From IMG/VR virus record IMGVR_UViG_2713896787_000012: 4,826 nucleotides of DNA, one strand, 5' to 3'. The translations under genes were made by a program, and so were the position numbers. This document shows, one piece after another, positions 1,091 to 4,708 of this stretch. Below the pieces are notes generated by a model that was not told the origin of the DNA, did not search any database, and was given only the letters and a program-made list of their open reading frames with translations. Numbering within the stretch: the first letter of the stretch is position 1; every line of letters starts with the position of its first letter. Source of the stretch: a virus (taxonomy: Duplodnaviria; Heunggongvirae; Uroviricota; Caudoviricetes).

Positions 1091-1418
1091 AATTAAAGAA
1101 ATGCCGGTAGTTCGTGACGGATATGGCTACTGGACACATCCTGAATATGAAAAATTCTGTGATGGTCGGGAATATATTTCAACGGAAGAGTTTAACGCCT
1201 GGATGGAGGAAAATAATCTTCAATANNNNNNNNNNNNNNNNNNNNNNNNNNNNNNNNNNNNNNNNNNNNNNNNNNGTGCTGACCTTGATGCGTGTGATGC
1301 TGATATTTCTGCATGGGAACCGGAACGACCAGAGGGCGATGGCTGGTTTATTGGTTCCATTCATGATACGGAAGATGGCCCGGTTTGTGTCTGGTTGCGA
1401 AATAAGGCTGAAGCATAA
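1083..1418 (+). CDS. Hypothetical phage protein (about 111 aa), interrupted by a 50-nt N run
   Basis: GTG 1083 is preceded by AGGAGG at 1071-1076 (6 nt spacing) and overlaps the upstream gene by 8 nt. Protein-like sequence on both sides of the gap (MSKIKEMPVVRDGYGYWTHPEY... / ...WEPERPEGDGWFIGSIHDTEDGPVCVW). Frame continuity across the Ns is assumed, not proven. Confidence 0.55.
   Translation: MSKIKEMPVVRDGYGYWTHPEYEKFCDGREYISTEEFNAWMEENNLQXXXXXXXXXXXXXXXXXXADLDACDADISAWEPERPEGDGWFIGSIHDTEDGPVCVWLRNKAEA
1226..1275. other. Run of 50 N (masked or unsequenced bases) inside CDS 1083-1418
   Basis: Directly visible in the sequence. Confidence 0.99.
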
Positions 1419-2410: not shown

Positions 2411-2438
2411 TTGCGGGAAAAGGATAGTTAAGTAGAAT
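2411..2438 (+). promoter_or_regulatory. Putative sigma70 promoter of the hok mRNA (-35 TTGCGG 2411-2416, 16-nt spacer, -10 TAGAAT 2433-2438)
   Basis: Hexamers and spacing read directly. The predicted +1 (about 2445) coincides with a GGGTGCTTGAGGC motif resembling the 5' end of plasmid R1 hok mRNA (GGCGCTTGAGGC, from memory). Confidence 0.5.
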
Positions 2439-2492
2439 TGCAGCGGGTGCTTGAGGCTATCTGCCTCGGGCATGAACACCAACGGCAGATAG

Positions 2493-2566
2493 AGAAAAGC
2501 CCCAGTTAACATTACGCGTCCTGCAAGACGCTTAACATTAATCTGAGGCTCAATCCATGCTGAACA
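2493..2566 (-). ncRNA. sok: Sok-like antisense RNA (type I antitoxin), about 70 nt, complementary to the hok leader and mok translation-initiation region
   Basis: Minus-strand promoter lies just to the right; the transcript would start near 2565 and run leftward across the mok ATG (2557). It ends in an imperfect hairpin (gcgtc/gacgc core at 2515-2530 flanked by 9-bp ttaacatta repeats) followed on the minus strand by ttttctc (2498-2492). Ends are approximate. Confidence 0.5.
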
Positions 2567-2799
2567 CATGTAGGTTAGCCTCTTACGTGCCGAAAGGCAA
2601 GGAGAAGCAGGCTATGAAGCAGCAAANNNNNNNNNNNNNNNNNNNNNNNNNNNNNNNNNNNNNNNNNNNNNNNNNNATCGTCATCTGTTTAACCGTCATA
2701 GTGACGGCACTGGTAACGAGGAAAGACCTCTGCGAGGTGCGAATCCGAACCGGTCAGACGGAGGTCGCTGTCTTCGTAGACTACGAATCTGAGAAGTAA
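2557..2799 (+). CDS. mok: Mok-like leader reading frame, in frame with and containing hok (arrangement as in chromosomal mokC/hokC)
   Basis: ATG 2557; N-terminus MLNTCRLASYVPKGKEKQA resembles the MokC N-terminus (MLNTCRVPLTDRKVKEKRA, from memory) and reads straight into the hok start MKQQ. Confidence 0.55.
   Translation: MLNTCRLASYVPKGKEKQAMKQQXXXXXXXXXXXXXXXXXIVICLTVIVTALVTRKDLCEVRIRTGQTEVAVFVDYESEK
2572..2600 (-). promoter_or_regulatory. Putative sok promoter on the minus strand (-35 TTGCCT, 17-nt spacer, -10 TAACCT)
   Basis: Reverse complement of 2595-2600 (aggcaa) gives TTGCCT and of 2572-2577 (aggtta) gives TAACCT, with a 17-nt spacer. Position matches the R1 sok promoter embedded antisense in the mok 5' region. 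Confidence 0.5.
2614..2799 (+). CDS. hok: Hok/Gef-family type I toxin (small membrane toxin); N-terminal/transmembrane part masked by 50 N
   Basis: After the gap: IVICLTVIVTALVTRKDLCEVRIRTGQTEVAVFVDYESEK, nearly identical in pattern to the HokC/Gef core (ALVTRKDLCEVHIRTGQTEVAVFTAYESE, from memory). ATG 2614 (MKQQ) is preceded by AAGGAGAAG. Stop TAA 2797-2799. Apparent length of 61 aa depends on the true gap size. Confidence 0.85.
   Translation: MKQQXXXXXXXXXXXXXXXXXIVICLTVIVTALVTRKDLCEVRIRTGQTEVAVFVDYESEK
2627..2676. other. Run of 50 N inside hok/mok
   Basis: Directly visible in the sequence; covers the hok N-terminal/transmembrane coding part. Confidence 0.99.
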
Positions 2800-2806
2800 G
2801 AGACCA

Positions 2807-2861
2807 GGCGGGGGAGTAATCTCCCGCCACCTCTGATGTGTCAGGCATCCTCAACGCACCC
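2807..2861 (+). promoter_or_regulatory. hok mRNA 3' region: stem-loop (2807-2828) plus fold-back element (2849-2861) complementary to the mRNA 5' end
   Basis: ggcgggggag / taat / ctcccgcc hairpin with no U-tract, then cctcaacgcaccc complementary to 2445-2456. Consistent with the fbi/tac pairing that keeps full-length hok mRNA translationally inert. Confidence 0.5.
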
Positions 2862-2918
2862 GCGCTTTACCATACTGAAAATGCTGTTTGAATGTTCATC
2901 TCTGAAAGAGGACTATGA

Positions 2919-3263
2919 ATGAAAAAGGTATTGATTGCAGCACTTATTTCCGGTGTGTCTTTTGGCGCTTTTGCACAGCAGGGTGGTTTCCAGGGGCCAG
3001 AAGCAGAGCGTTCAACAGTAGCGCAGGCAAAAGAACTGAAGGATGATGCATGGGTTATCCTTGAAGGGAGCATCGTTAAAAAAGTGGGTGATGAACGTTA
3101 TGAGTTTCGTGACAATAGCGGGACAATTGTCACGGATATTGATGACAGCGTATGGGCCGGGCAGAATGTTTCTCCGAAAGACAAAGTAAGAATTGAGGGT
3201 GAAATTGATAAAGACCTGAGCAGTGTTGAAGTTGATGTAAAGGCACTGAAATTATTAAAGTAA
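2919..3263 (+). CDS. YgiW/YdeI (BOF, DUF388) family secreted OB-fold protein (114 aa) with Sec signal peptide
   Basis: SD AAGAGGA at 2906-2912, ATG 2919. Signal peptide MKKVLIAALISGVSFGAFA followed by QQ. Body (WVILEGSIVKKVGDERYEFRDNSGTIVTDIDDSVW...VRIEGEIDKD...VEVDVK) matches the YgiW/YdeI family pattern as I recall it. Own terminator downstream. Confidence 0.85.
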   Translation: MKKVLIAALISGVSFGAFAQQGGFQGPEAERSTVAQAKELKDDAWVILEGSIVKKVGDERYEFRDNSGTIVTDIDDSVWAGQNVSPKDKVRIEGEIDKDLSSVEVDVKALKLLK

Positions 3264-3281
3264 CCGCCCCTGCTTGTTAAG

Positions 3282-3308
3282 CCCGTCTTACTGACGGGTT
3301 TTCTGTTT
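3282..3308 (+). terminator. Rho-independent terminator after the YgiW-like gene
   Basis: Stem cccgtc (3282-3287) / gacggg (3293-3298) with loop ttact, followed by ttttctgttt. Confidence 0.7.
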
Positions 3309-3384: not shown

Positions 3385-3657
3385 ATGACACAACACATAA
3401 AATCCCACAATTCTGAAGCCGACCCGGAAATTAAGCAGGGGAGGCGTTTTCGTGCGCCTCAGTATGGCTGGTTTCACTATCTGTTCTGTACGATCGATGA
3501 GGCAGATATGCTTCAAGAGGCGTATCTGCGTCGCGGTGTCCGTGTGGAGCGGAGTCTGAACGCTGATCGTCTGACCTGGACCGTTTCTGTATATCTTCCT
3601 GTTCGTGCACATCTGCCACGGACACATGCCTGCTACCGTCAGCGCGTCTGGAGGTAA
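3385..3657 (+). CDS. Hypothetical small protein (90 aa), translationally coupled to the downstream YdfU-like gene; occupies the position of rem in the E. coli Qin prophage
   Basis: Good SD (GGAG, about 6 nt spacing) before ATG 3385. Stop TAA 3655-3657 lies inside the junction TAATGTG, where GTG 3659 starts the next gene. Homology to Rem is not established. Confidence 0.5.
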   Translation: MTQHIKSHNSEADPEIKQGRRFRAPQYGWFHYLFCTIDEADMLQEAYLRRGVRVERSLNADRLTWTVSVYLPVRAHLPRTHACYRQRVWR

Positions 3658-3658
3658 T

Positions 3659-4708
3659 GTGCGGGTATTACTTCGACCTGTTCTGGTTCCGGAACTCGGG
3701 CTGGTGGTCCTTAAGCCCGGTCGTGAATCATTGCCAGTTTTTCATCGCGGCAGGGTGCTGGTGGAGCCGGAACCGAAAAACATGCGGGCGCTGCCATCTG
3801 GAGCGGTTCCTGCTGTTCGCCAGCCGCTGGCGGAAGATAAATCACTGCTGCCATTTTTCAGCGATGAGCGGGTGATTCGTGCAGCTGGCGGCGCTGGTGC
3901 ACTGTCTGACTGGTTATTACGTCACGTGAAATCCTGCCAGTGGCCACACGGCGATTATCATCACAGCGAAACCGTTATTCACAGTTACGGTGCTGGCGCA
4001 ATGGTGTTGTGCTGGCACTGCGACAACCAGCTGCGCGACCAGACCTCCGAATCACTTGAGCAACTTACTCAACAAAATCTGACAGCCTGGATGATTGACG
4101 TCATACGCCATGTAATGAATGGCACGCAGGAGCGGGAATTATCGCTGGCTGAATTATCCTGGTGGGCAGTCTGCAATCAGGTGGTGGACGCATTACCTGA
4201 GGCAGTATCGCGTCGTTCTCTGGGATTACCGGCGGAAAAAATCCGCTCCGTATACCGTGAAAGCGACATCATACCGGGAGAACAGACCGCCACCAGCATA
4301 CTGAAGCAGCGCACAAAAAATATTGCGCTACCGCCTCACACCCACCAGCAACAGAACCCACCACAGGAAAAGACGGTGGTCAGCATTGCCGTTGATCCGG
4401 AGTCTCCGGAATCCTTCATGAAACGACCTAAACGTCGCCGCTGGGTAAATGAGAAATACACACGCTGGGTAAAGACACAGCCGTGTGCGTGTTGTGGTAA
4501 GCCAGCGGACGATCCTCATCATCTGATTGGTCATGGTCAGGGTGGAATGGGAACAAAATCCCACGATATTTTCACGCTACCGCTGTGTCGGGAGCATCAC
4601 AACGAGCTTCATGCGGATCCGCTGGCGTTCGAAGAAAAGCATGGTTCCCAGGTTGATTTAATTTTTCGTTTTCTTGATCACGCCTTTGCAACCGGCGTGC
4701 TCGGGTAA
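3659..4708 (+). CDS. YdfU-like DUF968 protein (349 aa) with a C-terminal Cys/His zinc-finger, HNH-like motif
   Basis: ORF-track entry 3605-4708 trimmed to GTG 3659, which is preceded by GGAGG (3650-3654) and directly follows the upstream stop. The resulting 349 aa matches the length I recall for E. coli YdfU. C-terminus CACCGKPADDPHHLIGHGQGGMGTKSHDIFTLPLCREHHNELH. Start could alternatively be ATG 3626 or GTG 3605. Confidence 0.7.
   Translation: MRVLLRPVLVPELGLVVLKPGRESLPVFHRGRVLVEPEPKNMRALPSGAVPAVRQPLAEDKSLLPFFSDERVIRAAGGAGALSDWLLRHVKSCQWPHGDYHHSETVIHSYGAGAMVLCWHCDNQLRDQTSESLEQLTQQNLTAWMIDVIRHVMNGTQERELSLAELSWWAVCNQVVDALPEAVSRRSLGLPAEKIRSVYRESDIIPGEQTATSILKQRTKNIALPPHTHQQQNPPQEKTVVSIAVDPESPESFMKRPKRRRWVNEKYTRWVKTQPCACCGKPADDPHHLIGHGQGGMGTKSHDIFTLPLCREHHNELHADPLAFEEKHGSQVDLIFRFLDHAFATGVLG

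What the first reader, a model, noticed from the sequence alone, without database searches (positions are those of the whole stretch)
2445..2861. Long-range 5'/3' complementarity in the predicted hok transcript
The predicted 5' end gggtgcttgagg (2445-2456) is nearly the exact reverse complement of cctcaacgcaccc (2849-2861), about 400 nt downstream. The leader also carries a 9-bp perfect inverted repeat (2457-2465 / 2484-2492). This is the signature expected for fold-back inhibition and processing-dependent activation of hok mRNA, and it independently fixes the transcript boundaries.
Basis: seen in the sequence. Interest (0 to 1): 0.5.

Follow-up and report, generated by a model that had tools for sequence, protein, structure and literature searches.

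The report
Known hok mRNA end-pairing (tac–fbi)
The two complementary stretches are real: they are the well-known helix that pairs the 5' end of a hok toxin mRNA with its 3' region and keeps the mRNA silent, here in the already described hokW/sokW locus of Shiga-toxin phages, so the finding is correct but ordinary.

Summary
GGGTGCTTGAGG (2445-2456) pairs with CCTCAACGCACCC (2849-2861) as 12 Watson-Crick pairs with one bulged C (2855). CTATCTGCC (2457-2465) and GGCAGATAG (2484-2492) form a perfect 9-bp inverted repeat. One correction is needed. The N run 2627-2676 is a 50-N placeholder for only 20 real bases, so the paired RNA is 387 nt long, not 417.

The locus is 98.5% identical to mokW/hokW/sokW of phage 933W and Sp5, and no difference falls in either arm. 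In 46 diverged Enterobacterales loci the same 5'/3' helix sits at the same place. It shows compensatory changes, RNAalifold recovers it, and a partner-swap test gave 0 of 20,000 permutations as good. This is the tac–fbi "fold-back" helix described for plasmid R1 hok mRNA in 1995-97.

Caveats:
- The helix supports the 5' end. At the 3' end it marks only the trimmed, blunt-ended isoform, not the primary end.
- This allele lacks the terminator that follows fbi in most relatives. A BOF (ygiW-like) gene follows directly.
- Energy models alone do not reproduce the opening of the mok ribosome site after truncation.

Verdict: already known, low interest.

The parts
2411..2438 (+). Inferred hok promoter: weak -35 TTGCGG (2411-2416), 16-nt spacer, -10 TAGAAT (2433-2438). 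G2445 lies 7 nt after the -10.
   Evidence: Read from the sequence. A -10-like hexamer sits 6 nt before the first G in the diverged loci listed. The strict consensus scan did not call it.
2445..2456 (+). tac, the 5' arm of the long-range helix (GGGTGCTTGAGG), and the inferred +1 of the hok mRNA.
2457..2492 (+). Leader hairpin made by the perfect 9-bp inverted repeat 2457-2465 / 2484-2492. It is present both in the full-length fold and in the tac-ucb fold.
   Evidence: On the 46-locus alignment it is 98.9% paired and 4 of its 8 pairs show changes on both sides.
2463..2473 (+). Partner of tac in the small 5' hairpin (RNA positions 3-13 with 19-29). This corresponds to the metastable hairpin described for nascent R1 hok mRNA. 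It excludes both tac-fbi and the 9-bp hairpin.
   Evidence: It is the minimum-energy fold of the first 35 nt and of the truncated RNA. It is 93.9% paired across loci, with 6 pairs changed on both sides and 0 of 500 shuffles as good.
2497..2503 (+). ucb (AAGCCCC). It pairs with the mok Shine-Dalgarno region in the closed form, or with tac (positions 1-3 and 5-8) in the open form.
   Evidence: Rfam consensus structure. The first 60 nt fold this way. Pairing is 98.7% across loci but almost invariant.
2495..2565 (-). SokW antisense RNA (71 nt): a single-stranded 5' tail, a long hairpin and a U tail. Inferred promoter on the - strand: -35 TTGCCT (2600-2595) and -10 TAACCT (2577-2572).
   Evidence: Mapped from the 933W annotation. 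Fold -30 kcal/mol, z -5.0. A 71-nt sokW RNA was shown experimentally for the Sp5 allele (PMC8621323). The promoter hexamers are my reading of the sequence.
2545..2799 (+). mok Shine-Dalgarno GAGG (2545-2548) and the mok ORF (ATG 2557 to TAA 2797-2799). mok is in frame with hok and encodes 70 aa in the unmasked genome.
   Evidence: The SD is predicted to be paired in the full-length fold.
2614..2799 (+). hok toxin ORF (51 aa in the unmasked genome). Window positions 2627-2676 are a 50-N mask standing for 20 real bases.
   Evidence: PF01848 scores 81.1 bits.
2807..2828 (+). GC-rich 3' stem-loop (GGCGGGGGA / TCTCCCGCC). It is the inferred roadblock that would define the 3' end of the processed RNA of about 355 nt.
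   Evidence: It is conserved with covariation, for example alignment columns 385:392 show AU 26 and GC 17. Its role is inferred from R1 (PMC1635323, PMC9841398).
2849..2861 (+). fbi, the 3' arm of the long-range helix (CCTCAACGCACCC, C2855 bulged).
2862..2918 (+). Spacer between fbi and the next gene. It lacks the intrinsic terminator that follows fbi in most related loci.
2919..3301 (+). BOF (ygiW/ydeI-like) gene 2919-3263, followed by the first terminator-like site on the + strand (3279-3301). This is a possible end of a read-through hok transcript.
   Evidence: tac-fbi is still predicted (p at least 0.97) in an 835-nt read-through RNA.

Best explanation
The window holds an allele of the hokW/mokW/sokW type I toxin-antitoxin locus, in the nin region of a lambdoid (Stx-phage-like) prophage. 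The two complementary stretches are the tac (5') and fbi (3') elements of the hok mRNA.

Shown here:
- They form a 12-bp helix with one bulge.
- The helix closes the 387-nt RNA.
- The helix is maintained by compensatory changes across the family.

Inferred from plasmid R1:
- While the helix stands, ucb stays paired with the mok Shine-Dalgarno region. Neither ribosomes nor Sok can then bind, and the blunt end slows 3' exonucleases.
- Slow trimming back to the GC-rich stem-loop (2807-2828) removes about 32 nt, including fbi.
- tac is freed to pair with ucb. mok and hok translation then becomes possible, unless SokW (2495-2565, - strand) binds and RNase III degrades the duplex.

A small 5' hairpin (RNA positions 3-13 with 19-29) can hold tac during transcription. 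The 9-bp inverted repeat is a stable leader hairpin. It coexists with both tac-fbi and tac-ucb.
For: Identity of the locus.
- Rfam RF01794 scores 113.5 bits against a gathering score of 59, starting exactly at 2445.
- PF01848 scores 81 bits.
- The locus is 100% identical to STEC chromosomes.
- It is 98.5% identical to the annotated locus of 933W, with 8 differences in 551 nt and none in tac or fbi.

Structure in this sequence.
- The full-length minimum-energy fold (-160.9 kcal/mol, z -8.1) and its centroid are closed by the helix.
- Pair probabilities are 0.97-1.0.
- Forcing tac-ucb costs 11.1 kcal/mol in the full-length RNA but only 1.7 kcal/mol after truncation.

Comparative evidence.
- In 134 loci there are 51 distinct tac/fbi combinations. 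In 46 of these the best complement of the first 16 nt lies 38-71 nt after the hok stop.
- RNAalifold on 46 full-length sequences recovers the helix. Alignment columns 4:448 show UA 28, CG 15, UG 2 and CA 1.
- The structure-pair count for this helix and the leader hairpin together gives 99.2% paired. No shuffle of 500 reaches this, and slid controls give 34-55%.
- Duplex-derived pairs show changes on both sides at tac positions 4, 7, 8, 9, 10, 11 and 12, plus about 20 G-U cells.
- Swapping fbi partners among the 11 distinct tac 13-mers gave 0 of 20,000 permutations as good as the real pairing.
- 45 of 46 relatives close their own minimum-energy fold with this helix.
- Coupled covariation: tac positions 4 and 12 covary with fbi and also with the 5'-hairpin partner.

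Literature.
- The tac/fbi, ucb and metastable model is set out in PMC9841398.
- R1 isoforms of 441, 398 and 361 nt, with a blunt-ended structure, are described in PMC1635323.
- hokW/sokW was shown to be a working type I toxin-antitoxin system in PMC8621323.
Against: - No transcript ends are mapped for this allele. PMC8621323 saw shorter hokW RNAs but did not map them.
- The thermodynamic model does not reproduce activation. In the truncated RNA the 5' hairpin dominates (p about 0.92), tac-ucb has p about 0.07, and the mok SD stays paired.
- tac-ucb is almost invariant, so covariation says nothing for or against it.
- There is no intrinsic terminator after fbi in this allele. A blunt 5'/3' end would need trimming of a longer RNA.
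- The homologous sequences were cut at the fbi found by a duplex search. The result that 45 of 46 folds are closed is therefore partly circular.
Confidence: 0.88

Rival explanations
1. The helix is a real RNA structure, but in this allele it is not an end-pairing. With no terminator after fbi, transcription from the hok promoter (or from phage early promoters upstream) runs on into the BOF gene. The helix is then internal to a longer RNA. The 3' arm does not mark a transcript end, and activation would need an endonucleolytic cut or decay of the downstream cistron.
For: - No terminator-like site lies between 2300 and 3000, or between fbi and 2919.
- Most other loci have a terminator hairpin 5-10 nt after fbi. 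This allele diverges from them right after GCGCTT.
- No promoter-like site precedes the BOF gene.
- The helix is still predicted with p at least 0.97 in an 835-nt read-through RNA.
Against: - The Sp5 northern blot on a 6% polyacrylamide gel detected a discrete full-length hokW band plus smaller ones (PMC8621323). This fits a species of a few hundred nt.
- In R1 a longer primary RNA (441 nt) is trimmed to the blunt 398-nt form (PMC1635323). The same trimming could happen here.
- Rho-dependent or weak termination cannot be excluded with these tools.
Confidence: 0.2
2. The two arms are DNA-level terminal inverted repeats that bound a mobile hok/sok cassette. They are not an RNA helix.
For: - The complementarity extends two bases further in this allele (GCGGGTGC / GCACCCGC, 2443-2450 / 2856-2863).
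- The hok/sok module sits in varied flanking contexts.
Against: - Variation tolerates G-U pairs on the + strand, about 20 cells. These would be A-C mismatches in DNA or on the other strand.
- Pairing stops at the inferred +1 across the family, with 29 of 69 paired at position -1.
- The same 5' bases covary with two other partners on the same strand.
- The junctions with flanking DNA lie beyond the terminator in most loci, not at the arms.
Confidence: 0.02
3. The match is a chance complementarity with no function.
For: In a single sequence, 20 of 2000 shuffles of the 170-nt downstream region give a duplex as stable.
Against: - The expected number of such matches in the window is 0.02.
- The helix keeps the same position in 46 of 51 distinct locus types.
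- It shows compensatory changes, and the swap test gave 0 of 20,000.
Confidence: 0.01

Closest known systems
hokW/mokW/sokW of Stx phages 933W and Sp5 (VT2-Sakai)
   Same: It is 98.5% identical over 551 nt, with identical tac, fbi and Hok, the same neighbours (a BOF/ygiW-like gene downstream) and the same 71-nt antisense RNA position. Toxin-antitoxin activity of the Sp5 allele has been shown experimentally (PMC8621323).
   Different: There are eight point differences. Four lie in the upstream ORF. One lies in the promoter spacer (2425) and one between the -10 and +1 (2442). One lies in the leader/Sok hairpin loop (2522) and one at the base of the 3' stem-loop (2807). The passages of PMC8621323 that I read report no mapping or analysis of the fold-back helix.
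hok/sok (parB) of plasmid R1: the tac-fbi fold-back, tac-ucb switch and 3' processing
   Same: The architecture is the same: a 5' G-rich tac, a leader hairpin, ucb, a mok leader ORF, an antisense Sok, a GC-rich 3' stem-loop, and fbi about 20 nt further on that pairs with the very 5' end (PMC9841398, PMC1635323).
   Different: - According to PMC8621323, HokW is only 44% identical to R1 Hok.
- tac is GGGUGC... rather than GGCGC..., with U4:A in place of C:G as a compensated change.
- The helix has one bulged C.
- The blunt form is 387 nt against 398 nt, and the tail to be removed is about 32 nt against 37-39 nt.
- R1-type loci carry a strong terminator right after fbi, giving the 441-nt primary RNA. 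This allele has none.
Rfam RF01794 ('sok antitoxin')
   Same: The match is full length (model positions 1-157) at 2445-2619, scoring 113.5 bits.
   Different: The hit lies on the hok-sense strand. The model's consensus structure is the tac-ucb leader fold of hok mRNA, not the antisense RNA. It stops at the hok start and does not cover fbi.
Other bacterial mRNAs controlled by 5'/3' pairing or metastable folds (aapA3/IsoA3 of Helicobacter pylori; icaR of Staphylococcus aureus)
   Same: They share the principle that long-range pairing or transient hairpins hide a ribosome binding site until processing occurs (cited in PMC9841398; the title of PMC3868564).
   Different: They are unrelated in sequence and were not compared here. 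They are named only as analogues.

Membership tests
[quoted passage not shown] | A small Hok/Gef membrane toxin ORF | tested here: met
   PF01848 scores 81.1 bits against a cut-off of 22, using the unmasked reference sequence. Identical proteins are named Hok family toxin.
[quoted passage not shown] | An overlapping mok leader ORF with its own Shine-Dalgarno upstream of hok | tested here: met
   The ORF 2557-2799 is in frame with hok, and GAGG lies 8 nt before its ATG. It is annotated mokW in 933W.
[quoted passage not shown] | A cis-encoded antisense Sok RNA against the mok translation initiation region | tested here: met
   The 933W sokW annotation maps to 2495-2565 on the - strand. The fold has a 5' tail, a hairpin and a U tail, at -30 kcal/mol and z -5.0. 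Expression was shown only for the Sp5 allele (PMC8621323).
[quoted passage not shown] | The 5' end (tac) pairs with a 3' element (fbi), conserved with covariation | tested here: met
[quoted passage not shown] | An alternative tac-ucb pairing that frees the mok SD after 3' truncation | tested here: inconclusive
   The complementarity is present and 98.7% conserved, but it is almost invariant. The penalty for forcing it falls from 11.1 to 1.7 kcal/mol on truncation. The predicted ensemble still favours the closed form.
[quoted passage not shown] | A metastable 5' hairpin that sequesters tac in the nascent RNA, with coupled covariation | tested here: met
   It is the minimum-energy fold of the first 35 nt. 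It is 93.9% paired across loci, 6 pairs have changes on both sides, and 0 of 500 shuffles reach this.
[quoted passage not shown] | A GC-rich 3' stem-loop upstream of fbi that stops exonucleolytic trimming | tested here: met
   The stem-loop at 2807-2828 is present and conserved with covariation. Its roadblock role is inferred from R1.
[quoted passage not shown] | An intrinsic terminator shortly after fbi (the primary RNA, 441 nt in R1) | tested here: not met
   No terminator lies between 2862 and 2918 in this allele. My lenient scan flagged 98 of 128 related loci, but for this allele type only spurious sites inside the BOF gene. A hairpin directly after fbi is seen in most other prophage copies and in all the R1-type ones. 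This terminator is the usual arrangement in R1-type loci rather than a strict requirement.
[quoted passage not shown] | Slow 3' processing by PNPase/RNase II activates translation; RNase III clears the hok-Sok duplex | not testable with these tools
   This needs northern blots, RACE and nuclease mutants. PMC8621323 reports partial RNase III and Hfq dependence for the Sp5 allele.
Rfam RF01794 | A score above the gathering threshold | tested here: met
   113.5 bits against 59, E = 3.6e-26.

The most novel reading that the evidence does not exclude
In the hokW-type allele, which is found with at least 80% query coverage in about 1,040 of 5,426 complete E. coli genomes, a BOF (ygiW-like) gene takes the place of the terminator that normally follows fbi. 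The hok mRNA may therefore be made as a bicistronic hok-BOF transcript in which tac-fbi is an internal clamp. Removal of fbi, and so Hok activation, would then depend on decay or cleavage of the downstream cistron. Read-through from the phage early promoter on induction would also run antisense to sokW. This could tie toxin release to prophage induction, as reported for Sp5.
Probability: 0.15. Interest if true: 0.35.

Novelty: already known. Interest (0 to 1): 0.1.

Why it matters
It matters little beyond annotation. The result gives precise, testable coordinates for the hokW mRNA isoforms: start at 2445, a blunt-ended inactive form of 387 nt ending at 2861, and a processed form of about 355 nt ending near 2829. 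The published hokW/sokW study left these isoforms unmapped. The result also flags that this common Stx-phage allele lacks the usual terminator after fbi. The mechanism itself has been textbook material for type I toxin-antitoxin systems since the 1990s.

Tried and rejected
- Duplex search between long flanks. Pairing 170 nt upstream with 200 nt downstream gave meaningless long composite duplexes. I replaced it with the first 16 nt against the downstream region.
A 5-sequence alignment worked.
- Mini-alignment. An alignment of tac plus linker plus fbi (A5) came out ungapped. It put R1-type and bulge-less sequences out of register, so I did not use it. The inner half of the helix (positions 7-12) therefore rests on per-sequence duplex pairs and the swap test. 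Only the outer six pairs were counted on the MAFFT alignment.
- Second 3' contact. The predicted helix between the mok start region (2557-2575) and 2829-2848 is only 64% paired on the alignment. That is barely above the slid controls in a poorly aligned region, so the result is inconclusive.
- Truncated fold. The truncated RNA does not show an exposed mok SD in the minimum-energy or ensemble prediction. I did not take this as evidence against the switch, because the two states differ by only 1.7 kcal/mol.
- Rejected explanations. Chance complementarity and DNA-level terminal repeats were considered and rejected (see the rival explanations).
- Promoter scan. The strict sigma-70 scan found no promoter at 2411-2438. 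The promoter is inferred from the conserved -10 spacing only.

Full report
**1. What is in the window.** All long ORFs lie on the + strand, and the region is 100% identical to chromosomes of Shiga-toxin-producing E. coli. In the reference copy I fetched (L001), the annotated genes run in this order:
- a DUF1627 gene, a DNA-binding protein gene and a DUF551 gene;
- a Hok/Gef toxin gene;
- a NirD/YgiW/YdeI (BOF) gene;
- a DUF968 gene, a RusA gene and an antiterminator gene.

This is the nin region of a lambdoid prophage. Against phage records the hok segment is 98.5% identical to phage 933W and to VT2-Sakai (Sp5). There it is annotated mokW, hokW and 'SokW antisense RNA'. Only 8 of 551 positions differ from 933W, and none lies in either complementary arm.

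**2. A coordinate trap.** The window has two runs of exactly 50 N (1226-1275 and 2627-2676). The second lies inside hok and stands for only 20 real bases, AGGCGATGTTAATCGCCCTG. Any distance measured across it is 30 too long. The stretch 2445-2861 is therefore 387 nt in the genome. All folding used the unmasked reference (L001 2566-2952).

**3. The observation.** GGGTGCTTGAGG (2445-2456) and CCTCAACGCACCC (2849-2861) form 12 Watson-Crick pairs with C2855 bulged. CTATCTGCC (2457-2465) and GGCAGATAG (2484-2492) are perfectly complementary.
- The 3' motif, allowing one mismatch, occurs once in the window against 0.02 expected.
- It is the best + strand target for the 5' 13-mer in 5.5 kb.
- On energy alone, about 1% of shuffles of the 170 nt after the stop do as well.

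One sequence is therefore suggestive but not decisive.

The 387-nt RNA has a minimum free energy of -160.9 kcal/mol (z -8.1). Both the minimum-energy and the centroid structures are closed by the 5'/3' helix, with the 9-bp hairpin stacked next to it. Pair probabilities for the twelve pairs are 0.97-1.0.

I then cut the RNA after the GC-rich stem-loop (2807-2828). The 5' end refolds locally into a hairpin of positions 3-13 with 19-29.
- Forcing the alternative pairing of the 5' end with AAGCCCC (2497-2503, 'ucb') costs 11.1 kcal/mol in the full-length RNA. It costs only 1.7 kcal/mol in the truncated one.
- The first 60 nt alone fold into exactly that tac-ucb structure plus the 9-bp hairpin. This is also the consensus structure of the Rfam model.
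- The energy model still leaves the mok Shine-Dalgarno (2545-2548) paired after truncation.

Release of the 5' end is therefore shown in silico. Opening of the ribosome site is not.

**5. Comparative evidence.** I collected 80 phage and prophage loci. I also collected 79 loci from one-genome-per-species bacterial contigs, with Hok identity from 41% to 96%. They include Escherichia, Kluyvera, Photorhabdus, Pantoea, Enterobacter, Citrobacter, Buttiauxella and others.

In 134 loci with a recognisable 5' motif there are 51 distinct combinations of 5' and 3' arms. In 46 of these the best complement of the first 16 nt lies 38-71 nt after the hok stop. This implies RNAs of 353-397 nt. Of the five exceptions, two have a disrupted hok ORF (L135, L156). 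One has a rearranged downstream flank (L148).

A MAFFT alignment of 46 full-length sequences was folded with RNAalifold, which was given no information about the helix. It returned four elements:
- the closing helix, where alignment columns 4:448 show UA 28, CG 15, UG 2 and CA 1;
- the 9-bp leader hairpin, where columns 17:70 show AU 23, UA 13, GC 5 and GU 4;
- a helix between the hok start region and the coding sequence;
- the 3' stem-loop.

Counting pairs for the outer six pairs of the closing helix plus the leader hairpin gives 99.2% paired. No shuffle of 500 reaches that value, and sliding the partner by 1-3 columns gives 34-55%.

The inner six pairs could not be aligned reliably, because the bulge moves or is absent. 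I therefore used per-sequence duplexes. They show changes on both sides at positions 4, 7, 8, 9, 10, 11 and 12. Examples are GGGUGCUCUGGA with UCCAUGAGCACCC in Mixta, G12-to-A with C-to-U in Kluyvera, and U7-to-C with A-to-G in Enterobacillus.

Re-dealing the 3' arms among the 11 distinct 5' 13-mers never matched the real total energy (0 of 20,000). In 45 of 46 relatives the independent minimum-energy fold is closed by this helix. That last result is partly circular, because the sequences were cut at the arm found by the duplex search.

**6. RNA-level or DNA-level.** The variation includes about 20 G-U cells on the + strand. These would be A-C mismatches on the other strand or in DNA. Pairing stops at the first G: position -1 is complementary in only 29 of 69 distinct loci, which is near chance. 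The two extra complementary bases in this allele are therefore lineage-specific. The same 5' bases also covary with a second partner on the same strand, in the 5' hairpin. There, position 4 shows UA 28 and CG 10, and position 12 shows GC 22 and AU 10; overall the hairpin is 93.9% paired and 0 of 500 shuffles reach that. This is the 'coupled covariation' reported for this family. The tac-ucb pairing is 98.7% conserved but nearly invariant, so covariation says nothing about it.

**7. What it is.** The feature is the tac/fbi fold-back stem of hok mRNA. The published model has these steps (PMC9841398, PMC1635323):
- the 5'/3' stem locks the full-length RNA so that ucb hides the mok Shine-Dalgarno;
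- slow 3' trimming back to a stem-loop frees tac, which then pairs with ucb;
- the truncated RNA can be translated or bound by Sok, and Sok binding leads to RNase III cleavage;
- a metastable hairpin holds tac during transcription.

The R1 isoforms are 441 and 398 nt (initial forms) and 361 nt (mature form), and the ends of the folded full-length RNA form a blunt-ended structure (PMC1635323). The Sp5 allele of this very locus has been shown to be a type I toxin-antitoxin system with a 71-nt sokW RNA. Shorter hokW RNAs were seen but not mapped (PMC8621323). hok genes are known to be enriched in prophages (bioRxiv 10.1101/2025.08.07.668861).

Every element of the model has a counterpart here (see the parts list). 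The steps involving nucleases, translation and killing are inferred by homology. They were not tested here.

**8. Transcript boundaries.** The 5' boundary at 2445 has three lines of support:
- the start of the Rfam model;
- the conserved spacing of a -10-like hexamer, 6 nt upstream in the relatives examined;
- the end of conserved pairing at the first G.

The 3' arm corresponds to the trimmed blunt-ended isoform (398 nt in R1), not to the primary 3' end. Most relatives carry an intrinsic terminator 5-10 nt after fbi, for example CCCGCTTCGGCGGGTTTTTT. In those relatives the longer RNA folds with both the closing helix and a separate terminator hairpin.

The allele in this window, like 933W and Sp5, diverges from the others immediately after GCGCTT and has no terminator before the BOF gene at 2919. 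The first terminator-like site on the + strand is 3279-3301, and no promoter-like site precedes the BOF gene. The helix is still predicted, with p at least 0.97, in an 835-nt read-through RNA. How the 3' end near 2861 arises in this allele is therefore open. This is the only mildly unusual aspect of the locus.

**9. Verdict.** The feature is a textbook element in an already named locus. Novelty: already known. Interest: low.

Noticed in passing
window 1226-1275 and 2627-2676: Both N runs are exactly 50 long. The second replaces only 20 real bases inside hok, so the masks do not preserve length and distances measured across them are wrong by 30. The first lies inside the ORF 1083-1418. That ORF is 312 bases in the reference against 336 in the window, which implies about 26 real bases under the mask.
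   Followed up: partly
window 2445-2619 (+): The Rfam family named 'sok antitoxin' (RF01794) matches the hok-sense strand. Its consensus structure is the tac-ucb leader fold of hok mRNA. The real antisense RNA lies on the other strand at 2495-2565.
   Followed up: yes
window 2862-2918: There is no intrinsic terminator between fbi and the next gene in this allele (also the 933W/Sp5 type). Most related loci have a strong terminator 5-10 nt after fbi, and the divergence starts right after GCGCTT.
   Followed up: partly
window 2919-3263 (+), terminator-like site 3279-3301: A BOF (ygiW/ydeI-like, PF04076, 115 bits) gene with a signal-peptide-like N-terminus follows hok directly. No promoter-like site was detected ahead of it, so it may be co-transcribed with hok or with the phage early operon.
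   Followed up: partly
window 2557-2575 with 2829-2848: The minimum-energy fold pairs the mok start-codon region with the stretch just 5' of fbi. This recalls the older R1 idea that the 3' end competes with Sok for the mok initiation region. On the alignment it is only 64% paired, which is inconclusive.
   Followed up: partly
window 2838-2850; loci L017 and L048: A second register exists: GGGTGC(C/T)TGA can pair with TCAGGCATCC just upstream of fbi (-19.2 kcal/mol here). In one prophage variant with U7-to-C (L017), this register is the stronger one (-23.1 kcal/mol).
   Followed up: no
whole window, + strand: hok has the same orientation as the nin-region genes (DUF968 at 3605-4708, RusA from 4721, and the antiterminator further on in L001). 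Early-operon read-through on induction would therefore run antisense to sokW. [quoted passage not shown] It is speculation and was not tested.
   Followed up: no
loci L094, L093, L112, L113, L139 (genome contigs): Several hok copies have no recognisable tac motif upstream and instead share a different upstream sequence (…GATTGTTACAAGATTAAGCTCCGGTCTTCAGGC…). I suspect these are hokD/relF-type copies that have lost the leader, but I did not examine them further.
   Followed up: no
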